Sequence record: MK509462
Reading direction: 5' to 3' (one strand)
From: Shigella phage MK-13
DNA: 64,000 nucleotides
Numbering within the stretch: position 1 is the first letter of the stretch; every line of letters starts with the position of its first letter. The notes beneath the pieces are model-generated. The model made no database searches. It was given only the letters and a program-made list of their open reading frames with translations, and was not told the DNA's origin. The position numbers and the translations under genes are program-made. This document shows, piece by piece, positions 3,980 to 63,561 of this stretch.

Positions 3980-4642
3980 ATGTCCTACTCCCTCAAGGGG
4001 TTGCTCAAGCGCCCCGTCCACACATTCATTAAACCGCCTGTCGTAAAGGGGATCTACCCAGCACGAGGGCAACTCTATTACGTCAAAGGCTCCAATGGTA
4101 GCGGCAAATCCACCGTACCGTCTCAGCTGGCGGAGAGGGATCCTCAGGCGTATGTTGTGACACATGACGGCAAGATTATGTTGACGGTCTGCCCGTCATT
4201 CAACGTGGTGTGTATCGGCAAATATGACAAGTCAAAGTCCAAGGGGGTTGATTCCCTGAAGGATACTGAACAAATGCTCTTCGCCCTGAGCATCGCTGAT
4301 CTACCTGAATATCAGGTATACGATGTGATCTTCGAAGGCATTATCCCTTCAACTCTACTGAGTTCCTGGATCCCCCGCCTGACGCGCCCACCGCGCGAAC
4401 TGGTTGTTCTCTTCATGGACACCCCTCTTGAAACCTGCATCGCCCGTGTTAAATCACGTAACGGCGGTGCGGACTTCAATGAGAGCCTCGTGGTAGAGAA
4501 GTGGGAGCGTGTTCAAGACCATCGCCAGCGCCATAAAGGCTTGTTCCCTACGGTGGCCGCAGGTATGATGAAGTCTCACGGTCTAACAGTAGACCAGGCT
4601 GTAATGGCATTCCTCTGTCGTGATTTTGGGAGTATTGATTGA
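3980..4642 (+). CDS. P-loop kinase (Walker A GSNGSGKST); candidate nucleotide or DNA-base kinase
   Basis: ORF 3968..4642, ATG at 3980; Walker A motif near residue 40; stop overlaps the start of the ThyA-fold gene (TGATG). Confidence 0.55.
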   Translation: MSYSLKGLLKRPVHTFIKPPVVKGIYPARGQLYYVKGSNGSGKSTVPSQLAERDPQAYVVTHDGKIMLTVCPSFNVVCIGKYDKSKSKGVDSLKDTEQMLFALSIADLPEYQVYDVIFEGIIPSTLLSSWIPRLTRPPRELVVLFMDTPLETCIARVKSRNGGADFNESLVVEKWERVQDHRQRHKGLFPTVAAGMMKSHGLTVDQAVMAFLCRDFGSID

Positions 4643-5688
4643 TGGAAATCAAAGCAATTAACAACAATGACATGCTGAAGCAGGCTGTCTTGGCTATCCG
4701 CGAATACGGAATTGAATCTGATCCTGGTAATGCGGAGATCAACACCGACGGCACCCGATTCCTTGATGGTGTGACGATTACCGTGGATGATATCCGCAGC
4801 CGCTGGCTGTCTGTTGAAGGTCGTAACTCATCGGCTATCGCTGCCATCGGCGAGACCTTCTGGGTTCTGTCCGGGCGCGATGACGTTCGCTTCCTGTCCC
4901 GCGTGTTGCCCCGCGCCGCCAACTTTTCCGACAACGGCCACACATGGCGAGCCGCTTATGGTCCGCGTCTGTACGCCCATGGCCAGCTGGATAGCGTCAT
5001 CAACCGTCTGCGCAAGAACCCAAACACCCGTCAGGCGTACCTCACCATCTATGACCCGGCTCTGGATTCAGATGCTGGCCTGGCGAAGTTCAGCGAGAGC
5101 GGCGAAGCGAAGACTAAAGACATGGTGTGTAACCTGGCTCTGTTGTTCGCCATCGTTGAAGGTCGTCTGAACCTGACGGTCATCAACCGCTCACAGGATG
5201 TTCTGTGGGGTATGAGTTCAATCAACTTCATTGAGTTCTCTATTCTTCAGGAAGTGATTGCTCGGGTGCTGGGTGTTGATGTCGGCCAGTACAAGCTCTT
5301 CTCTAACAATCTTCATTACTACAACAATGAAGTCAGCCAGAAGCAGCTGGGCAAGATCACGAAGGACACCAAAGTAGAAGCTGGGTTCATCAACTCAATG
5401 ATTCACTTCAAGAACGTGACCAACCAGAACCATATCCGCAATCTGTTCACTGGTGTGCTTCATCACTGTGATATCGGTAGCCCGTGGGAAACTGTGGTCG
5501 CCCACCTGAAGGAATATGATGCTGATCGCGGCCTGATTGTACAGATGGCGTACTGCCTGTACTGCAAGCTGAACGACAAACTCATCAACATGAACCTGAT
5601 TCAGGATCATGGTTTGAACATTGCGCTCACCCATTCTCCAGTTGACCGCAAGATCGTTGATCCTAAGTTCCTGGAAGGTGTGGTATGA
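4642..5688 (+). CDS. Thymidylate synthase-fold enzyme, divergent; candidate pyrimidine (dUMP/dCMP) hydroxymethylase
   Basis: Divergent counterparts of ThyA motifs: RQAYLTIYDP (ThyA RRIIxSAWNP), Cys in DMVCNLALLF (catalytic-Cys region), NRSQDVLWGMSSINF (ThyA QRSxDxxLGxPFN); recognised from memory of family motifs. Confidence 0.6.
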   Translation: MEIKAINNNDMLKQAVLAIREYGIESDPGNAEINTDGTRFLDGVTITVDDIRSRWLSVEGRNSSAIAAIGETFWVLSGRDDVRFLSRVLPRAANFSDNGHTWRAAYGPRLYAHGQLDSVINRLRKNPNTRQAYLTIYDPALDSDAGLAKFSESGEAKTKDMVCNLALLFAIVEGRLNLTVINRSQDVLWGMSSINFIEFSILQEVIARVLGVDVGQYKLFSNNLHYYNNEVSQKQLGKITKDTKVEAGFINSMIHFKNVTNQNHIRNLFTGVLHHCDIGSPWETVVAHLKEYDADRGLIVQMAYCLYCKLNDKLINMNLIQDHGLNIALTHSPVDRKIVDPKFLEGVV

Positions 5689-45939: not shown

Positions 45940-47172
45940 TCAGCGTTTCAAGAGTGCCATGAGGTTGACGCTGCTGGGCTTCGACTTGTCTTCAGGCTTG
46001 ACAGCTGTCTTCGGGCGTTCACACACCTCAGATGGTTCCCAGCGCGTACCCTTTTGCAGGTGCCAAATGTGCAGAGGGATGCCAGTATCAAAGAACACAG
46101 GCATCTTCCACTTCTGGACGCCTGGAACGTGCCCTGCAGGAGCCTTTTCGCATAACAGGGTATCTGGTAACCAGAGTGAACGGGCTTCCCAGAGCGCTGC
46201 ACAGGAGTACTCCGGCCAGATGCGTTCCATGTAGTCGATCTCATCCCAGGTACGCTCGGCATCCCACCCAATGTAACGGGTATTCTTCTCACGGAAGAAC
46301 TTCTTCAGCCAGCATGCACCGGAGGTTTCAAAGTTCAGGCGATTGATGAACGTCAGATGCCCGAACTCAGCCACGCATTCCTTGAACGCCTGTTCAAGGT
46401 CGGCCTCAAGGATGTCACACTCTTCATCAGTGATAGGACAACCATTGATCTTTTTCTTCCCATGCTTGGTCACCCAATCATCACGGTTGGACAAGAACGC
46501 CGCGCCGTTGCGGTTGGACTCGCTGCCATCACGATCACGCAGCATGAAGCCAGGGACGTCGATATCCCACATATTGCCAAACACCATGTTCAGAGCTTCC
46601 AGGAAGTTCCAGGCGCTCAGGCGGCCGAAGTATTTCCAGGACATCGCCGTTTCCCACAACTTAGTGAACTGGTCGCCCTGGGGCTTGGTCTCCAACATCG
46701 GTCGGAATGCTTCCATCTGGGAGCGCCCTGCCAGCCAGTCAATGTAGGACTGAACACATGGGATCATCTTCGACTTGCGATAGCGGCAGTCGGTATCGAA
46801 GCGCATGCGCTCAAAGTTCAGGTTGTACCAATCAGAGAAGCGCTGCATCTCTTCTTTGGACTGAGGGGGTACAGGGAACTCACTGTAGATTGTCCATGGA
46901 CCGATGGCGTTGTAACAGCAGCCCCAAAGGAATGCCATCCAGATTTTGCGCTCGATCTTCTCAAGCTGCGTGATGCCTTCTGTGACTTCGATCGCATAAT
47001 CCATCAGACGCATCTGCTGGTTGTGCTCTTCGGTGTAGGACAGCGCCTCCACCCAAGCCTTGAGCAGGTACATGCGATTCTCAGGCTTGCGATAATCAAC
47101 AGCCAGGTCAATCGGGTACTTCCATTCAGCCGGGGGTGTATAGCCCGTCGGCATTTTAGATAGATGCGTCAT
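45940..47172 (-). CDS. Large conserved-looking hypothetical protein (Trp/Cys-rich); candidate enzyme of the nucleotide/DNA-modification module
   Basis: 410 aa with no recognisable motif; sits between the kinase/HAD genes and the small-protein cluster. Confidence 0.45.
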   Translation of the reverse strand: MTHLSKMPTGYTPPAEWKYPIDLAVDYRKPENRMYLLKAWVEALSYTEEHNQQMRLMDYAIEVTEGITQLEKIERKIWMAFLWGCCYNAIGPWTIYSEFPVPPQSKEEMQRFSDWYNLNFERMRFDTDCRYRKSKMIPCVQSYIDWLAGRSQMEAFRPMLETKPQGDQFTKLWETAMSWKYFGRLSAWNFLEALNMVFGNMWDIDVPGFMLRDRDGSESNRNGAAFLSNRDDWVTKHGKKKINGCPITDEECDILEADLEQAFKECVAEFGHLTFINRLNFETSGACWLKKFFREKNTRYIGWDAERTWDEIDYMERIWPEYSCAALWEARSLWLPDTLLCEKAPAGHVPGVQKWKMPVFFDTGIPLHIWHLQKGTRWEPSEVCERPKTAVKPEDKSKPSSVNLMALLKR

Positions 47173-47708: not shown

Positions 47709-48626
47709 TCACCCCTTCTTCATCAGGTCAAGGAGAGAGCGCGACGCTGCCTTCGGTGCTTCCGGCTGGGCACTCGCCTTGGTTTTAGTTTTAGATGCCT
47801 TCTGCGGCTTCTCAGGCACTCTGTGCGCCAAAGGATCATTACCGCCGACCTCACGGGTCATCGGATTGGTTTCGCAGTAGGCGTAGAAGTCTTTGGTGTG
47901 CATGTCAACATCGCGCAGTTCAGAGCGTGTCTGATGACAAATCGCATTACCCACAACCCACAGCGGGGCGTCGTATGGGAGCACCGCCAACTCGGACTGC
48001 TGTTTGGTCGTGAACTCCTGGGTGTTGGCCTCTGGTGCTTTATACAGGATATCCTGTCCGCTGTAATCATCAACAGCCACAGTGAAGCCCAGCGTCAACA
48101 TTTCGGTCTTCGATTTCTCAAACTCCTTGGAGTAAGATTCGTTGCGCGACCAGCCGGAGTCCCCTGCTTCTTTACCAGAGCGACCACGGATGCGGGCATC
48201 GTACTGATAGCGGTCGGGGTACGCAAAGTACAGCAGCGCCAATGATTCAATCGGATAATTCTTGAACATCCACTCAGGACGCCATTTGTCCGACAGCATG
48301 AGGGGTTCGCCCTCGCACACCAGAGTGTAACCCTGCGCCAGCCAGCCCTTGACCAGATCACGGGCGATATCACCCGAGCCTGTGGCAGCATGAATGGCGT
48401 CCATGGAAGTCCAGGAAGCCAGGCCGGATTTGTTGGACACAGTGTACTGGCCGACGAAGATCAACTTCAGCTCTTCGAATTTCAGGCCAAACGGGCGCGT
48501 CTTATCACCAATGGTGTAGGTGAGTTCGGTAGGCTCCAGCTTCGTACGGAGCCATTCGATGAACTGTACAACACGAGTACCCTTACCCGTGCCGCTGGTT
48601 CCTTTGATTACGATGATCTTTGCCAT
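47709..48626 (-). CDS. P-loop kinase with adenylate/NMP-kinase-type Walker A (GTSGTGKGT)
   Basis: N-terminal KIIVIKGTSGTGKGTRV resembles the GxPGxGKGT P-loop of NMP kinases; 305 aa. Confidence 0.45.
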   Translation of the reverse strand: MAKIIVIKGTSGTGKGTRVVQFIEWLRTKLEPTELTYTIGDKTRPFGLKFEELKLIFVGQYTVSNKSGLASWTSMDAIHAATGSGDIARDLVKGWLAQGYTLVCEGEPLMLSDKWRPEWMFKNYPIESLALLYFAYPDRYQYDARIRGRSGKEAGDSGWSRNESYSKEFEKSKTEMLTLGFTVAVDDYSGQDILYKAPEANTQEFTTKQQSELAVLPYDAPLWVVGNAICHQTRSELRDVDMHTKDFYAYCETNPMTREVGGNDPLAHRVPEKPQKASKTKTKASAQPEAPKAASRSLLDLMKKG

Positions 48627-55853: not shown

Positions 55854-56312
55854 TTATTCTTCCCAGAAGTCGTCATCGTCCCCGACGGCGGCCAGTTCCG
55901 TGTCCAGGTCTTCATCAGTGAACGGCGGTAGTACCCCATTCTGAATCAGATAATCCATTTCATCGTCTTCCAGCTGCAGGTCAGTGGCAATATACAGCGC
56001 TCCGCTGCCCTCTTCGTCCGTCTCGATACTGTACGAAGTGTATGGCACCCCATTCACTGTAATGATGATAGACGTTGGATCCTCGGGATCTACGTGCGCC
56101 TCGAACGGCACACCATCAATCGGCGCATCTTCCAGGAAGGTGGCAAGGGCTACAGCGGCGCGAACAACATCAGTGCCTTCAACGCCTGCATAGATCTCTT
56201 CCGCGCCCGTCTCTTCACGATCAAACAGCTCAATCGTGATACCGTCTTGAACACCAGTCCATACGGGGATGTCATTGGTGTATTCTGATTCAAACAATTT
56301 GGAGGTTGGCAT
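55854..56312 (-). CDS. Highly acidic protein (candidate DNA-mimic-type anti-restriction protein)
   Basis: 152 aa with very high Asp/Glu content throughout; function inferred only from composition. Confidence 0.4.
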   Translation of the reverse strand: MPTSKLFESEYTNDIPVWTGVQDGITIELFDREETGAEEIYAGVEGTDVVRAAVALATFLEDAPIDGVPFEAHVDPEDPTSIIITVNGVPYTSYSIETDEEGSGALYIATDLQLEDDEMDYLIQNGVLPPFTDEDLDTELAAVGDDDDFWEE

Positions 56313-56457
56313 GTTGGGTTCCTCAGTGGGTTAGCCATATGGGGTATTTAGGCTTCCCGCACCGCCAGGCCTGGTTTGTACAGGACGATCTCACGGAAAT
56401 ATTCAAGAAAGGTTTCATAGATACCCCACACGGGTTGTATGGGGTATTTAGAAGGGA

Positions 56458-57756
56458 TCAGGAAGGGGTGAAGCCGTTTACGGGTACTGTTTCAGGGATA
56501 GCCAGCTCAGGGCATGCAGCCTTCATTGGCTCGATGTACGGCTTGCTACCCACAATCCAGAACAGAGTGTTCTCATTGAGCAACTCGGGCTTGTTCTGCT
56601 GGATCCAGGTCATGACCTTGCCTTCATAGCGAGGGTGCAACTCAATATCACCCCACTGATAATCCATCAGGTCATTGTAACGAACCCAGTTGGTGGTGTG
56701 AAGATCCCAATGGTGTACCTCAAAACGAGGAAGCGTTATCTCTGGCTCGTCCTTCTGCCTGATACCACTTAGGAGGCCAGCCAGCGAAACGCTCTTAGAG
56801 GCATGCTGAAGCTCCTTCTTGCCGTGGACATAGTCTGGGTTGTCGTGATAACGGCGGGTGAAGTCGACAATGTGAGGCAGATTGGCTTGCTTACCAATGA
56901 TACGCAGGCGGCTCTCAATGAAGTCCAGGCGGTTTGGTCCAATCCCAATCAGATAAACACGCTTCAGATTAGGCTTAGGATGCATCGCCAGCCCGGTCAG
57001 GATGCTTGTGCATGAGTTGCATGATCCAGCAGGGATGATCAGATCGGTGATGTGGTCTGGGATGTTAGCAACCTGCTCGCCACCCAGCATATGGAAGCCA
57101 GCGATGCGCTCTGGGGAGTGAGCCGTGTGGTCCAGGGTGATACCATATTCCAGGTAGTACGCCTTTGGATTCACCTGCTCAATGAGTTTCTTACAGCGCG
57201 GCTGGATCGTGCTGTTGTAACCCGAGCCGACGAAGTTGAACTCACTGCCGAACCAGGCGCTCATCTCAACCATCCCATGGTTCATGCAAGTGGTTGGTTT
57301 GGTCGCGCCGAGTACAGTGGTTGTCTTTCCGCCGAAGTGCCGAGAGACTGCCGTCGCCATAGGGGATTGCGGACTACCAACGACAGTACCGTGGATGATG
57401 TCAGGGGAACCTCCGGCCTTCAGGTGCTCAACCATCAGCCAGATGGCCTGGCGCAACTTACTGCCATTGATGCCCTGCTGACCATTTGCGTAATTGGACA
57501 GCGGTGCAAAGTAATCTTCACGCTTGAACCAGACCTGCTGATTGGTTTCGGGGTTGGCAACGAGTTCGCACGGGGTGTGCTTGTAGAGATAGTCTTCCCA
57601 GTGGATGACATTGCGGTCAAGCGAGAGAGCATTGAAGATAGTTTTGCGGTCGCCCATAAGGGCATCCGGGGTATATGGAGCAAAGATAAAAGGGCTGGCG
57701 TTTTCTTCTATCGCCTGTTTGGTGATATCTATAAGTTTCTGAGTTTTGTCGTTCAT
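56458..57756 (-). CDS. PLP-dependent enzyme, fold type II (tryptophan synthase beta / ACC deaminase-like superfamily)
   Basis: WFKREDYFAPLSNYANGQQGINGSKLRQAI parallels the KRDDL...GGNKxRKLE lysine motif region of ACC/D-cysteine desulfhydrase-type enzymes; 432 aa. Confidence 0.5.
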   Translation of the reverse strand: MNDKTQKLIDITKQAIEENASPFIFAPYTPDALMGDRKTIFNALSLDRNVIHWEDYLYKHTPCELVANPETNQQVWFKREDYFAPLSNYANGQQGINGSKLRQAIWLMVEHLKAGGSPDIIHGTVVGSPQSPMATAVSRHFGGKTTTVLGATKPTTCMNHGMVEMSAWFGSEFNFVGSGYNSTIQPRCKKLIEQVNPKAYYLEYGITLDHTAHSPERIAGFHMLGGEQVANIPDHITDLIIPAGSCNSCTSILTGLAMHPKPNLKRVYLIGIGPNRLDFIESRLRIIGKQANLPHIVDFTRRYHDNPDYVHGKKELQHASKSVSLAGLLSGIRQKDEPEITLPRFEVHHWDLHTTNWVRYNDLMDYQWGDIELHPRYEGKVMTWIQQNKPELLNENTLFWIVGSKPYIEPMKAACPELAIPETVPVNGFTPS

Positions 57757-57825
57757 TCTATTTCTCCTGTAGACATTGGCTTATCATAGCGTATCTACAG
57801 GAGTATAGAAAAGGAGAATCTCGGC

Positions 57826-58524
57826 TTACTTCTTGAACAGACGAAGGAACTTCATCATGTTTTCCATGAAAGTCGGCTTCTTGACCTTTTGTTTTACCGG
57901 AGCACCCTGATCATTCAGAACACGACTGGCCGGAGGGGTAGGAGCCACAGGTGGCTCTACATATTTTCGATTCAGGCTTTCTTCAATCTCGCCCAATGAG
58001 GCGTCCTTCGTAGCCGGAACGATATTCACTGTATGACGCGGGGATTCAGCGACGTATTTGTTGTCAACCACAGTGACAGGCTTGACGAGATTCTTTTCGT
58101 ACTCGCGAGCCATGGCCTGGTACTTCCGATTCTCTGCGTCGAAGTCCATAGAAACGGCTTTACGACAACGGCGGGTTGCGCTTTCATCACCATAGAAATA
58201 GAAGAAGTTTTTGACCAGCCAATGGATTGCCTGTTCACGCGTATAGAATACTTTGAACGGCTGACCGTCGCCCTCTTCGGCGGCGGTAATACTAGAGTAA
58301 CCCATAAGGACAACCTGCCCCTTCACGCCGAGATCAAAGGGTGTGCATTCGCCAGGCTGGTTGAGATCACGCGGAGCGAGCTGGGAGCCGCGATGGATAT
58401 AATTCGGCGACAAGAACTCGTTCAGAGTACGCTTGTTGCCTTTGTATTGGAACATACGGATTATAGTTGGGGTGGACTGCAATTCCCATTCTTCAGTATT
58501 TTCCCAGATAGAAACATTACGCAT
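57826..58524 (-). CDS. Hypothetical protein
   Basis: 232 aa ORF. Confidence 0.45.
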   Translation of the reverse strand: MRNVSIWENTEEWELQSTPTIIRMFQYKGNKRTLNEFLSPNYIHRGSQLAPRDLNQPGECTPFDLGVKGQVVLMGYSSITAAEEGDGQPFKVFYTREQAIHWLVKNFFYFYGDESATRRCRKAVSMDFDAENRKYQAMAREYEKNLVKPVTVVDNKYVAESPRHTVNIVPATKDASLGEIEESLNRKYVEPPVAPTPPASRVLNDQGAPVKQKVKKPTFMENMMKFLRLFKK

Positions 58525-59786: not shown

Positions 59787-59870
59787 TGGAGCGGGAGAGC
59801 AGGATTCGAACCTGTCCAGTGATCGTCGCCGATGATCAGTCGGCTACTGTCCAACCCCTATGGCTCCCGC
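59787..59870 (-). tRNA. tRNA-like gene, atypical (anticodon unresolved; GAT if the central hairpin is the anticodon arm)
   Basis: Hand-folded: 7-bp acceptor gcgggag/ctcccgc, T-loop TTCGAAT, encoded CCA, 5-bp hairpin gccga-ctGATca-tcggc; one extra nucleotide between T-stem and acceptor and a long variable region. Confidence 0.35.
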
Positions 59871-60093
59871 GAAATAAGGACGGGCTTCACACCCGATTGA
59901 GCATTTGATCTGCCGTAGCCCAACTCCCCGCGCTTCTCAGCGCCGATTGGTTAACTGGCGACCAGTGCCTTCTGGTTCGATCTCCTGGAACTTTACAGGC
60001 TTTGCGCCCGACCATTTCTGGAAGTTGGGGCATCGTTTCCGATGTGGAGTCACCCCATTTTATACACAGCGTGGCTGCAACGCTTACTGTGTT

Positions 60094-60177
60094 TGGTGTG
60101 AGTGGATGGATTCGAACCACCGCGCTGTTACGGGGAGATTTACAGTCTCCTGCATTCGACCGCTCTGCCACACTCAC
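60094..60177 (-). tRNA. tRNA-Tyr (anticodon GTA), class II with long variable arm
   Basis: Hand-folded: acceptor gtgagtg/cactcac, anticodon arm ggaga-ctGTAaa-tctcc, T-arm ggtgg-TTCGAAT-ccatc, encoded CCA; anticodon loop matches E. coli tRNA-Tyr from memory. Confidence 0.7.
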
Positions 60178-60187
60178 ATTTGGTCTA

Positions 60188-60251
60188 CCGCTGCGTGCTG
60201 GGCCACGCTCGAGGACATCGGCCATCCTTCCTCAGCTAATCCACGCAGCGG
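60188..60251 (-). other. Long hairpin (10-bp inverted repeat ccgctgcgtg / cacgcagcgg, about 44-nt loop) adjacent to tRNA-Tyr
   Basis: Inverted repeat seen directly; possible processing signal or small RNA. Confidence 0.35.
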
Positions 60252-60434
60252 CAGATTTGTTTCAGAGTGTCCGGTGTAGCAACCCGTGAGGTGCGCACTA
60301 CTGTAGCCTCTACACTCTGAATTTGGTGGGCGTTACTATCGTCGTCTTCGGATTCCGTTCGGCTATTGGACAGAGGCTTGGAGCTTGTCGGTCGCGTACT
60401 TCGTGCCTATTCACTTTCGTTCACACCCATTGTC

Positions 60435-60510
60435 TGGCGACGATGACAGGACTTGAACCTGTGACATATGGATTAACAGTCCACCGTTCTACCGACTGAA
60501 CTACATCGTC
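60435..60510 (-). tRNA. tRNA-Asn (anticodon GTT)
   Basis: Hand-folded canonical cloverleaf: acceptor gacgatg/catcgtc, D-arm gttc/gaac, anticodon loop ctGTTaa, T-arm acagg-TTCAAGT-cctgt, encoded CCA; near-identical core to E. coli tRNA-Asn from memory. Confidence 0.75.
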
Positions 60511-60939
60511 TTTATCCGTGCTTGTTCGCTTCAATCGCCCTTAATTGGGCATCAGCGTCAGCTTTGGTGTCATGTGTACCAAGAACCTTCGTCTTGGTGT
60601 GGTCAAGGACAACCCACTTGTCACCTCGCTTTTCAACAAACTCGACAATCTCTTTGTTGTCGGTAGCGAGGCCATCCCACTCAGCAATAAAATCACCGAA
60701 CGTTTTCATCATACTCACCAATTGTTTATTGAACAACTGGTTTATTTAGGTGCTCCCAAGGCGGTATTTGAATCCCGCGATCCCATCACACCTGCCGTAG
60801 ACCGGAGCTTGCTGGCAGTCCAACAATGTTTGGCGGGGTTTGAGGATTTTCACCTCACCTGCTGGGTTTGGCCGCCCAGCCGTTCTCTATGAGGATTCGC
60901 TGTCCGGACAACTATCCCTTAAACTATCGCCCCTCAATT

Positions 60940-61019
60940 TGGTTGGAGGAGAAGGATTCGAACCTTCAACGGCTGCCGCCATCCCCTCAGGGAATGTCTA
61001 CCCCTTCCATCATCCTCCA
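60940..61019 (-). tRNA. tRNA, isotype uncertain (possible anticodon TGA)
   Basis: Perfect 7-bp acceptor tggagga/tcctcca, perfect T-arm gaagg-TTCGAAT-ccttc, encoded CCA; D and anticodon arms fold ambiguously by hand. Confidence 0.45.
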
Positions 61020-62540
61020 AATTATTGTGTGACCAACCAAGGACTGTCAACCCTTTATCCCGTTTGTGCATGATCAGTTCATGCAGGCCTGTTTGTGCGC
61101 CTCACAGCATGCGCTTCTGTTGGTCATTGGCTTGCACCGTAGCCTCGCAACAGGCGTTTATTTTTCCAGGGCTTTCCACTTGCAAGTCTTAACCATACAG
61201 GGATACGGGCTTGCAAGATCGGGTTGGTCACAACTCTGATGGCTCTCGCCTTTCCGCTCATTTACCTGTCATCCACAACCGATATACATTATGGAATCTT
61301 GAGAGCCATCAGAGTTGCAGCCATGCTACAACCCGCACCTGGGAGAGGACAAGGTGATCGACCCCAGATACTTGCCTGCTTTCGCCAGGCCAAACGGTTT
61401 AGCGTCGGGTGCCTCCCGATGCCATTATCATGGCGAATAATGGCGTTGACTTATCCTCAGGTGGTTCTTGCCACTCAACCCTTGCGCTTAGCAGGATTCA
61501 CTAAACAACCCGCACTTCAGTGTCTTCGTCACACTTCAGCACTTGTCCTCTAACGTTCAGACCAAACGAGGCTGGCCGATAGCAAACTTGTTCTCTGGTA
61601 TTTTGTGACCCGCCAGAACGGTATGGGTTGATAGCCCGAACTCAGTTTGTATCGTAGAGTGATCACACTTGTCAGGATGATCACTATTTTGCGAACTCGA
61701 GAATACTGCACCTGTCTCGGGTTTCCCCTTAGTACGGTCACTCATTGTTCGAAGCAGTCAGGGAGCTACCCTTGATGACCGCGCTTATCTTGAGCTGTTC
61801 CTGGTGCCCACCAGTGTCCGGAATGTATAGGCATCGCAGCTTTACAAGGCAATGGTCTATTTCACCCATCGCTCTCCCAAGTTCGCAAAGTAGAGTTCTC
61901 TGAACTTCAATGACCCCTCATCTTGTACTATCGCCGCCGGGAACGTTCACCATGTGAATCAACCCTTGGGTTAAGTTCAACGTCCAGAGGACTCTACTTT
62001 GCGTTGTGGGGGCTGACCCCCACACGGCTACTTCTTTAACAGGGATTGCCAGCCCTGGGGATTCCACTGTTTAAGGCTTCATCCCATAACGCCTTAGGCG
62101 TGTTCTCAAATTATTGAGCTTGCTTAACTGCAAACTGATGCGCTGTGAGACACATCTTTGAGGGCACTCAGTGTGCAACAGGCTCCGATATTTCATAGGG
62201 CATTACTGCCTCGGATTTGAGTTGCCTTTCTCCTGAAACTCCATGCAGTCTCGCGTCTGACGCGGAATGCCCTCAAAGATGTGGAGCCGCTTTAGGGAGT
62301 CGAACCCAAGTGATTGGCCAGCGCTGACCTCACACCCCACCTGATATGTTCACCGGAACTTGCCTACTCAGGAGCTTATCCCCTTTTGACAATCAGGTAT
62401 AGCGGCATTGTAAATCTGTTTGGGCGGAGGCCTGTAACCAGCAGGCATCTCCTAGCGAACTTCTGAACACCAGGCTCGGGTGCGCCTGTCGCTGTGGTGA
62501 GTTCGACTTAACTCCTGAGCGGTTATTCCCAGTCGTCGAC

Positions 62541-62624
62541 ACCCCCCAAACAGATTTTAGTCGGCGGGAGCTTATTAATCACACCCCCCAAACAGATTTT
62601 AGTCGGCGGGAGCTTATTAATCAC
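62541..62624. repeat. Perfect tandem duplication of a 42-bp unit (accccccaaacagattttagtcggcgggagcttattaatcac x2)
   Basis: Two identical adjacent copies; a partial inverted copy (aaatctgtttggg) lies about 120 nt upstream. Confidence 0.7.
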
Positions 62625-63357
62625 ACCCTCCCGCCTATTGTAGTGCGCCGAATTTTGTTATGAGGAGTCGGAAGACCTCACTGACTTATAGGCTATTACG
62701 CCGCCATCAGAACTACATCATCGTTTGCATTTATTTTTGTGGTCTGTTTCTTAAAACCCGCAAAGTCACGCACAACGAAAACGAAAACCTGTTTGAGCAC
62801 AAGACGCCATGTCCTGGGTTCACATCGAAGTGTTTGTCTAATGCCCAAACAGCTTTTCGTTCAATGGGTTAACTATACTCTGCAACCCGTTATTGACAAA
62901 ACTTTAAATCTGCCGGAACTTACGCATCCGGCCTCGCCTGTTGGTGCTCCTTCGAATCCGGGAAGATCAGCAGGAACTATGAATCAAGTTAATTCAACCA
63001 ACAGGAACCTTTGTGTTGCCCTTTGACGCAACATTATGAACCCTCTGTGAAGATCCATAATGTTGTCGGCGTGATGGAACCTGGCAGATCCGTCCTCCCC
63101 TATATGTTGGTGTCGACTTGCCAACGGGGTGCTCTCAAGCATCTGAGCTAATCACGCTACAACAGGGAGTTTCGTTCTCCGACGGTCAGTGCGTCCACTA
63201 ACACCATGCAAGGTGGATGTCACGCCTCTATTCACGCATGCCCCTGAGACTGGGATTAGTGAGGTCGGCTTTAGATGCCTAACTCAATGCGCTGTTCGCC
63301 TCACGTTTAATACTTTACCACAGCCCAGCTAATTTGAAAAGTCCTCTCCTCTTTGAG

Positions 63358-63504
63358 TTACACTGCCCACAGCAGTGCGGACGAACCTTCACTCAAAACC
63401 GGATGCACCGAAGTGGGCGACTGTTTACCGGACTGATCGGGTAGACCCAGGAGAGTAAAGGTAATCCCGATCAGGAGGATGAGGAGTAACATCATGTAAA
63501 ACAT
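63358..63504 (-). CDS. Small hydrophobic protein (about 48 aa)
   Basis: Hand translation MFYMMLLLILLIGITFTLLGLPDQSGKQ... preceded by a strong GGAGGG RBS; approximate coordinates. Confidence 0.3.
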   Translation of the reverse strand: MFYMMLLLILLIGITFTLLGLPDQSGKQSPTSVHPVLSEGSSALLWAV

Positions 63505-63561
63505 AGTGTTCCCTCCCTTCCATGCAACTAACTTTACTGCAATTCTTTATTGAATAAAGCG

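What the first reader, a model, noticed from the sequence alone, without database searches (positions are those of the whole stretch)
56458..57756. Stand-alone PLP-dependent fold-type-II enzyme in a phage replication region
A 432-aa protein with the lysine-motif region of the ACC deaminase/tryptophan synthase beta superfamily has no amino-acid biosynthesis neighbours. In phages with amino-acid-derived thymidine decorations, PLP enzymes finish the side chain (for example by decarboxylation). Together with the ThyA-fold/kinase operon this points to a multi-step DNA hypermodification.
Basis: inference. Interest (0 to 1): 0.7.

Follow-up and report, generated by a model that had tools for sequence, protein, structure and literature searches.

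The report
Known phage DNA-serine decarboxylase (gp226 ortholog)

Summary
The 432-aa ORF at 56458-57756 (-) is real, with a good ribosome-binding site. It is 91% identical to Salmonella phage ViI gp226. That enzyme was purified and shown to be a PLP-dependent decarboxylase converting O-serinyl-thymidine in DNA to 5-(2-aminoethoxy)methyl-dU (5-NeOmdU) (Lee et al. 2018, 2021).

The window comes from an Ackermannviridae (Agtrevirus-like) phage. It also carries orthologs of the rest of the ViI pathway:
- ThyA-like dUMP hydroxymethylase and 5-hmdU DNA kinase 1 (3980-5658)
- 5-hmdU DNA kinase 2 (47709-48626)
- serine:DNA transferase (45940-47172)

Evidence for the fold and active site:
- Profile search, an AlphaFold model (pLDDT 90) and Foldseek all place the protein in fold type II, nearest ACC deaminase/D-cysteine desulfhydrase.
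- The PLP lysine is K100. It equals ViI K92, M6 gp52 K36 and ACCD/DcyD K51, and is invariant in 52 homologs.

A minor extra is that the family keeps the ACC-deaminase-type Tyr-Glu signature (Y377-E378). This may explain how a fold-type-II scaffold performs decarboxylation, and no structure is solved. Interest is low.

The parts
56458..57756 (-). PLP-dependent O-serinyl-thymidine (DNA) decarboxylase, ortholog of ViI gp226 (432 aa)
   Evidence: ORF. 91% identity over 409 aa to ViI gp226 YP_004327553. 97.5% to Gloob gp181. PHROG 3650. AF2 model pLDDT 90.1. Fold type II by Foldseek.
57763..57768 (-). Shine-Dalgarno AGGAGA, 6 nt before the ATG
   Evidence: Read directly from the sequence.
57457..57459 (-). 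Codon of K100, the predicted Schiff-base (internal aldimine) lysine
   Evidence: Aligns with ViI K92 (K92 named in PMC8989533), M6 gp52 K36, ACCD K51 and E. coli DcyD K51. Invariant in 52 homologs.
57367..57375 (-). Codons of S128-P129-Q130, an invariant loop aligned to the S78-N-Q/H loop of ACCD/DcyD (substrate-side loop)
   Evidence: Invariant columns. Alignments.
57013..57027 (-). Codons of G244-S-C-N-S248, the predicted PLP-phosphate-binding loop
   Evidence: G244 and N247 are invariant; S245 and S248 are at least 90% conserved. Aligned to the T-G-S-T-T / S-G-S-A-G-T loop of ACCD/DcyD.
56623..56628 (-). Codons of Y377-E378 in the invariant HPxYEGK motif, aligned to ACCD Y294-E295 / DcyD Y287-T288
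   Evidence: Invariant columns H374, P375, Y377, E378, K380. Alignments.
45940..47172 (-). Amino acid:DNA transferase (clade-2 aGPT-Pplase), ortholog of ViI gp247 serine:DNA transferase; makes the decarboxylase's substrate
   Evidence: 90% identity to gp247. Pfam PF18724 ADDT E=2e-61.
47709..48626 (-). 5-hmdU DNA kinase 2, ortholog of ViI gp243
   Evidence: 86% identity. Pfam PF18747 HMUD2 E=7e-161.
3980..4639 (+). 5-hmdU DNA kinase 1, ortholog of ViI gp67
   Evidence: tblastn 88% identity. Pfam PF18748 HMUDK_HMUD1 E=3e-107.
4642..5658 (+). ThyA-fold enzyme, ortholog of ViI orf66 (dUMP hydroxymethylase supplying 5-hmdU)
   Evidence: tblastn 76% identity. Pfam Thymidylat_synt E=8.5e-16. Role taken from PMC5889632 and PMC8989533.
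55830..55852 (.). Bidirectional terminator-like hairpin closing the minus-strand gene run that contains the PLP gene

Best explanation
The gene encodes the Ackermannviridae O-serinyl-thymidine decarboxylase, the last enzyme of the 5-NeOmdU thymidine hypermodification pathway.

Pathway, as established for ViI and inferred here by orthology:
1. A ThyA-like enzyme makes 5-hm-dUMP, which is incorporated into DNA in place of dT.
2. After replication, 5-hmdU DNA kinases phosphorylate the hydroxymethyl group of a subset of these bases.
3. The clade-2 aGPT-Pplase (serine:DNA transferase) displaces the phosphate with the side-chain oxygen of free serine. This gives O-serinyl-T, whose alpha-amine stays free.
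4. The fold-type-II PLP enzyme exchanges its K100 internal aldimine for an external aldimine with that alpha-amine and removes CO2. This leaves 5-(2-aminoethoxy)methyl-dU in the DNA polymer.

The modification makes the DNA resistant to many restriction endonucleases.

Shown here: orthology, fold, conserved active-site residues, and presence of the partner genes. Shown elsewhere for the ViI ortholog: PLP binding and decarboxylation on DNA. Inferred: that this phage's enzyme does the same, and that E378 (at the position of ACC deaminase E295) interacts with the pyridine nitrogen to provide the electron sink for decarboxylation.
For: - 91% identity over 409 aa to ViI gp226.
- ViI gp226 was purified, was yellow with 410-425 nm absorbance, and converted O-SerT DNA to the 301-u nucleoside with loss of one labelled carbon. 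Leaving it out of lysate mixes gave a +44 u product (PMC8989533; PMC5889632).
- The ViI gene order is kept: needle knob, gp224, PLP gene, gp227, then the DNA polymerase, gp243 and gp247, apart from the deleted ART-like gene.
- Partner genes are present: gp243 86%, gp247 90%, gp67 88%, ThyA-like 76%, with specific Pfam families HMUD2, ADDT and HMUDK_HMUD1.
- K100 is invariant and aligned to every named PLP lysine.
- AF2 model has pLDDT 90.1 and pTM 0.87. All top-50 Foldseek PDB hits are fold-type-II PLP enzymes, best D-cysteine desulfhydrase at E=1e-11 with target TM 0.67-0.70.
- A 44%-identical metagenomic homolog sits directly beside an ADDT gene, with Tet/JBP and radical-SAM genes nearby.
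- 5-NeOmdU was confirmed chemically in other Ackermannviridae: CBA120 (PMC8989533) and phiHS2 (bioRxiv 10.64898/2026.05.19.726188).
Against: - There are no chemical data for this particular phage or for any Agtrevirus-type phage in what I read. The function is transferred by orthology.
- Pfam PALP scores just under its gathering threshold (31.3 vs 35 bits).
- NCBIfam has no model for the protein.
- gp160 (aGPT-Pplase1) was not found in the 64-kb window. It is probably elsewhere in the genome, and I did not establish from the ViI papers whether it is needed.
- The E378 role rests on sequence alignment only.
Confidence: 0.93

Rival explanations
1. It is a free-amino-acid enzyme of the kind database labels suggest (threonine ammonia-lyase/dehydratase, ACC deaminase or D-cysteine desulfhydrase), acting on host metabolites rather than on DNA.
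For: Several phage records and UniRef names call the orthologs 'threonine ammonia lyase/dehydratase' or 'ACC deaminase-like'. The nearest solved structures are ACCD/DcyD, and the ACCD-type K/S/Y-E residues are conserved.
Against: The 91%-identical ViI protein decarboxylates DNA-linked serine in vitro (PMC8989533). No NCBIfam equivalog for ACCD, DcyD or IlvA/TdcB matches. Identity to those enzymes is only about 15%. The family is linked to DNA-modification genes in both near and distant relatives.
Confidence: 0.03
2. It has the same enzyme chemistry, but this phage lineage makes a different final base. For example, the transferase could install another amino acid, or a further tailoring step could exist.
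For: Thymidine hypermodification pathways are combinatorial (PMC8989533). The flanking genes differ from ViI: the gp224-like ORF is only 41% identical, and the ART-like gene is deleted here. No chemistry was found for Agtrevirus.
Against: The transferase is 90% and the decarboxylase 91% identical to the ViI enzymes. No additional tailoring enzyme (rSAM, FAD, acetyltransferase) was seen next to any pathway gene. Reviews state the pathway genes are conserved family-wide (PMC11721090).
Confidence: 0.04

Closest known systems
Salmonella phage ViI gp226 (YP_004327553), PLP-dependent O-SerT DNA decarboxylase
   Same: 91% identity over 409 aa. Same lysine (K92 = K100). Same genomic position and same partner genes.
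   Different: The first ~25 residues are unrelated or extended: 432 aa here against 424 aa in ViI. An N-terminal helix at residues 3-19 is predicted with only moderate confidence. The adjacent ART-PolyVal-like gene of ViI is deleted here.
Pseudomonas phage M6 gp52, PLP-dependent C-alpha-glycinyl-T DNA decarboxylase
   Same: Same superfamily and same lysine position (K36 = K100). Same type of reaction on a DNA-tethered amino acid (PMC8989533).
   Different: The relationship is only distant: hhalign probability 58%, E=1e-4, N-terminal 180 residues only. gp52 is 278 aa. It acts after a radical-SAM isomerase and yields 5-NedU, not 5-NeOmdU.
ACC deaminase / D-cysteine desulfhydrase (PDB 1rqx, 1f2d, 4d8t, 1j0a)
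   Same: Fold type II. Closest solved structures. Active-site positions K51, S78, the phosphate loop, Y294-E295 and the hydrophobic 322-position all have counterparts (K100, S128, G244-S248, Y377-E378, V402).
   Different: About 15% identity. There are about 100 extra residues: an N-terminal extension and a poorly predicted 305-345 insertion. The ortholog's substrate is DNA-linked serine and its reaction is alpha-decarboxylation, not ring opening or beta-elimination. There is no NCBIfam match.

Membership tests
ViI gp226-type O-serinyl-thymidine DNA decarboxylase (Ackermannviridae 5-NeOmdU pathway) | Full-length sequence orthology to the characterised enzyme | tested here: met
   91% identity over 409 aa, E=0. 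PHROG 3650 E=3.8e-239.
ViI gp226-type O-serinyl-thymidine DNA decarboxylase (Ackermannviridae 5-NeOmdU pathway) | Conserved genomic position | tested here: met
   Same order as ViI and Gloob: needle knob, gp224, PLP gene, gp227, small ORFs, DNA polymerase, kinase 2, transferase. The one difference is the ART-like gene between the PLP gene and gp227, which is reduced to a remnant here.
ViI gp226-type O-serinyl-thymidine DNA decarboxylase (Ackermannviridae 5-NeOmdU pathway) | Co-occurrence with 5-hmdU DNA kinase(s), clade-2 aGPT-Pplase (serine:DNA transferase) and dUMP hydroxymethylase | tested here: met
   HMUD2 at 47709-48626, ADDT at 45940-47172, HMUDK1 at 3980-4639, ThyA-like at 4642-5658.
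ViI gp226-type O-serinyl-thymidine DNA decarboxylase (Ackermannviridae 5-NeOmdU pathway) | Decarboxylation of O-SerT in DNA; 5-NeOmdU in virion DNA | not testable with these tools
   Shown only for ViI gp226, CBA120 and phiHS2 in the literature.
Fold-type-II (tryptophan synthase beta-like) PLP-dependent enzymes | Two-domain alpha/beta fold of the TrpB/OASS/ACCD type | tested here: met
   AF2 model pLDDT 90.1. 329 PDB matches at E<=1e-3, and the top 50 are all fold-type-II enzymes.
Fold-type-II (tryptophan synthase beta-like) PLP-dependent enzymes | Schiff-base lysine in the N-terminal part, aligned with the family's catalytic lysine | tested here: met
   K100 aligns with ACCD K51 and DcyD K51 and is invariant.
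Fold-type-II (tryptophan synthase beta-like) PLP-dependent enzymes | Phosphate-binding loop C-terminal to the lysine | tested here: met
   P-A-G244-S-C-N-S248 aligns to the ACCD/DcyD loop and is conserved.
Fold-type-II (tryptophan synthase beta-like) PLP-dependent enzymes | Pfam PALP (PF00291) above the gathering score | tested here: not met
   31.3 bits against a cutoff of 35, E=1.7e-7. This is a divergent member. Precomputed PF00291 hits exist for some homologs.
ACC deaminase / D-cysteine desulfhydrase proper | Match to curated equivalog models or high similarity to the characterised enzymes | tested here: not met
   No NCBIfam family at E<=1. phmmer against PDB finds nothing. About 15% identity in structural alignments.
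ACC deaminase / D-cysteine desulfhydrase proper | Diagnostic residues K51, S78, Y294, E295, L322 (ACCD numbering; this list is from my own knowledge of the ACCD literature) | tested here: met
   K100, S128, Y377, E378 and V402 occupy the aligned positions. This is a resemblance of the active site, not evidence of ACC deaminase activity.

The most novel reading that the evidence does not exclude
The gp226 family is an ACC-deaminase-like fold-type-II scaffold that has been turned into an alpha-decarboxylase working on a DNA polymer. Fold-type-II enzymes normally place a Ser at the PLP pyridine nitrogen and are not listed among decarboxylases. Decarboxylases of other folds use Asp or Glu at that position (PMC6411801). 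The invariant Y377-E378 and hydrophobic 402 position, which are ACCD-type rather than DcyD-type, would give the protonated-pyridine electron sink that makes decarboxylation possible. The lineage-specific N-terminal extension and the 305-345 insertion would be the DNA-docking elements. No structure of any family member is in the PDB, so this remains an open and directly testable mechanistic point.
Probability: 0.45. Interest if true: 0.4.

Novelty: already known. Interest (0 to 1): 0.12.

Why it matters
5-NeOmdU protects Ackermannviridae genomes from many restriction enzymes, and gp226-type enzymes are among the few PLP enzymes known to act on a nucleobase within polymeric DNA. For this window the result mainly corrects annotation. 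Orthologs are still labelled 'hypothetical', 'threonine ammonia lyase' or 'threonine dehydratase' in most records. It also confirms that an Agtrevirus-like phage carries the ViI pathway genes checked; gp160 was not found in this window. It opens no new biological question beyond the unsolved structural basis of decarboxylation in this fold.

Tried and rejected
- Single-sequence phmmer against PDB found nothing, and NCBIfam found nothing. A family profile was needed to reach ACCD/DcyD.
It was rebuilt without that row.
- Model coordinates are not exposed. I could not measure whether K100, S128, the 244-248 loop and E378 cluster around one pocket, so the residue roles rest on alignments.
- I considered the repeated TAAATACCCC motif flanking the gene as a possible phage promoter. 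It occurs only 3 times in the window against 1.6 expected, and 26 of 100 shuffles did as well. It is simply the conserved gene-junction sequence on both sides of the deleted ART-like gene.
- The sigma-70 promoter scan was uninformative: 3 found against 4.0 expected.
- I considered the Gloob annotation 'N-acetyltransferase' for the downstream neighbour as a possible extra tailoring step, like PaMx11 gp48. I rejected this because Pfam gives ART-PolyVal/DUF3990, not GNAT, and the gene is absent here.

Full report
**Observation.** A 432-aa ORF occupies 56458..57756 on the minus strand, exactly as reported. AGGAGA lies 6 nt upstream of its ATG. It is clearly a real gene:
- It matches PHROG 3650 (function unknown) at E=3.8e-239.
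- Its DNA has close matches in 256 phage records, best Shigella phage Gloob at 94.5%.
- Pfam PALP (PLP-dependent enzyme, fold type II) matches residues 59-284 at E=1.7e-7, slightly below the gathering score.

**Source genome.** The matching records are Ackermannviridae: Agtrevirus Gloob/Ag3/SKML-39, Kuttervirus, Limestonevirus and Taipeivirus. This family is known for replacing part of its thymidine with 5-(2-aminoethoxy)methyl-dU, or 5-NeOmdU (PMC5889632; PMC11721090).

**Identity of the gene.** In the ViI reference genome, gp226 is YP_004327553 (Vi01_182/orf00226) (accession from Table 1 of PMC8989533). The window protein is 91% identical to it over 409 aa. It is 97.5% identical to Gloob gp181.

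Lee et al. showed the following for ViI gp226:
- The purified protein is yellow, with 410-425 nm absorbance.
- It converts O-serinyl-thymidine in DNA to the 301-u nucleoside 5-NeOmdU.
- It removes exactly one carbon from isotopically labelled serine.
- Omitting it from lysate mixtures gives a product 44 u heavier.

**Rest of the pathway.** The window also holds orthologs of:
- gp243, 5-hmdU DNA kinase 2 (47709-48626; 86% identity; Pfam HMUD2 E=7e-161)
- gp247, serine:DNA transferase (45940-47172; 90%; Pfam ADDT E=2e-61)
- gp67, 5-hmdU DNA kinase 1 (3980-4639; 88%; Pfam HMUDK_HMUD1)
- the ThyA-fold dUMP hydroxymethylase (4642-5658; 76%)
- the dnk-like gene and the dUTPase next to it

Only gp160 (aGPT-Pplase1) was not found, presumably because it lies outside these 64 kb. 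The gene order around the PLP gene otherwise matches ViI and Gloob; the ART-like gene described under 'Neighbourhood' is the one difference.

**Fold and active site.** I aligned 52 homologs down to 41% identity. The invariant residues include K100, S128-P129-Q130, G244 and N247 (within P-A-G-S-C-N-S), and H374-P375-x-Y377-E378-G-K380.
- A profile of this alignment finds ACC deaminase and D-cysteine desulfhydrase chains in the PDB, best 1rqx at E=7e-6. K100 falls on ACCD K51.
- hhalign against E. coli DcyD aligns 280 columns (probability 88%, E=3e-6). It maps K100 to K51, S128 to the S78 position, the 244-248 loop to the phosphate loop, Y377-E378 to Y287-T288, and V402 to T315.
- K100 also equals the published candidate lysines ViI K92 and M6 gp52 K36.
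- An AlphaFold2 model from the alignment is confident, with mean pLDDT 90.1 and pTM 0.87. The weak regions are residues 20-30 and 305-345.
- Foldseek against the PDB returns only fold-type-II PLP enzymes in the top 50. These are led by Salmonella D-cysteine desulfhydrase (E=1e-11, target TM 0.67-0.70, about 15% identity) and ACC deaminase.

**Mechanism.** The most likely mechanism is the published one. The free alpha-amine of the DNA-tethered serine forms an external aldimine with PLP by displacing K100. CO2 is then lost and the product amine is released.

One detail I did not find in the papers I read. The family carries the ACC-deaminase-type Tyr-Glu pair plus a hydrophobic residue at the 322-equivalent position, rather than the DcyD Tyr-Thr/Thr combination. 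The diagnostic residue list is from my own knowledge of the ACCD literature. Fold-type-II enzymes usually have Ser at the pyridine nitrogen, while decarboxylases of other folds use Asp or Glu (PMC6411801). E378 is therefore a plausible explanation for decarboxylase chemistry in this scaffold. This is inference, and no family member has a solved structure.

**Wider family.** tblastn finds the gene in 346 phage records. Nearly all are Ackermannviridae-type genomes of about 155-160 kb, including 61 Vibrio phages at about 52% identity. A metagenomic homolog at 44% identity sits in a Tet/JBP - PLP - ADDT - ... - radical-SAM cluster. This agrees with the combinatorial clusters described by Lee et al..

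**Neighbourhood.** The minus-strand run is bounded by terminator-like hairpins at 59428-59407 and 55851-55831. It contains a small ORF, the tail needle knob (Pfam Phage_tail_NK), a gp224-like ORF, the PLP gene and an acidic 152-aa ORF.

In ViI and Gloob an extra 150-aa gene follows the PLP gene. Gloob labels it 'N-acetyltransferase', but Pfam assigns it to ART-PolyVal/DUF3990. In this window about 388 bp of it are deleted, leaving a 71-nt remnant. That gene is therefore not an obligatory partner of the decarboxylase.

**Verdict.** The system is already known and biochemically reconstituted. Novelty is 'already known' and interest is low.

Noticed in passing
window 56348-56418 (-), compared with L001:11503-11961 (Gloob gp182) and L002:33853-34302 (Vi01_183): The gene directly downstream of the PLP gene in ViI and Gloob is reduced here to a 71-nt remnant. 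The start codon and the last ~45 nt are kept, and about 388 bp are deleted. Gloob annotates the intact gene as 'putative N-acetyltransferase', but Pfam gives ART-PolyVal (ADP-ribosyltransferase of polyvalent proteins, E=8e-12) and DUF3990. The label looks wrong, and the gene is dispensable in this lineage.
   Followed up: partly
window 56421-56447 (-): A hairpin, ATACCCCA...TGGGGTAT, lies just after the PLP stop codon and before the remnant's ATG. In window, Gloob and ViI the stem is invariant while the loop varies (ACAACCCGT / ACAATCCGT / ACAGCAAGT). This suggests a conserved RNA or DNA structural element between the two genes.
   Followed up: no
window 55854-56312 (-): A 152-aa protein visibly rich in Asp/Glu, ending ...DDDDFWEE, is 100% identical to Gloob gp183 and 64% to ViI gp227. 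It belongs to PHROG 3852 (unknown function) and has no Pfam hit. Its composition is reminiscent of DNA-mimic or anti-restriction proteins, but nothing was tested.
   Followed up: no
window 57826-58524 (-): The ORF immediately upstream of the PLP gene (gp224-like, PHROG 4050, unknown function) is only 41% identical to its ViI counterpart, while the flanking pathway genes are about 90% identical. It is a locally fast-evolving or exchanged gene.
   Followed up: no
window 59787-61019 (-): ARAGORN calls a tRNA cluster of Ile(gat) 84 nt, Tyr(gta), Asn(gtt) and Ser(tga). Only Tyr and Asn reach the Rfam tRNA gathering score. Gloob annotates Ser(gct), Tyr, Asn and Met at the equivalent place. The two unconfirmed calls may be degenerate or mis-typed tRNAs.
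   Followed up: partly
window ~61750-63560: This stretch has few ORFs of 60 aa or more. The equivalent stretches in Gloob (about 2.3 kb between tRNA-Met and gp172) and ViI (about 4 kb between Vi01_178 and Vi01_179) also carry no annotated CDS. No Rfam family matched at gathering score.
   Followed up: no
L006:9175-13946 (JGI metagenome contig Ga0485187_0000298): A distant homolog of the PLP enzyme (P0090, 44% identity) lies in a cluster of Tet/JBP dioxygenase - PLP - ADDT transferase - 184-aa ORF - radical SAM (opposite strand). No ThyA-like gene was seen within 10 kb. This suggests a route that makes 5-hmU on DNA by oxidation and yields a different final hypermodification.
   Followed up: no
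window 57646-57756 (-), residues 1-37 of the PLP protein: The N-terminal ~37 residues (predicted helix 3-19, moderate confidence) are lineage-specific. They are shared with Gloob, PhaxI and some Klebsiella/Serratia phages. They are unrelated in ViI and absent from the tblastn alignments to the CBA120 and Det7 records, which begin at residue 38. Most distant homologs lack them.
   Followed up: partly
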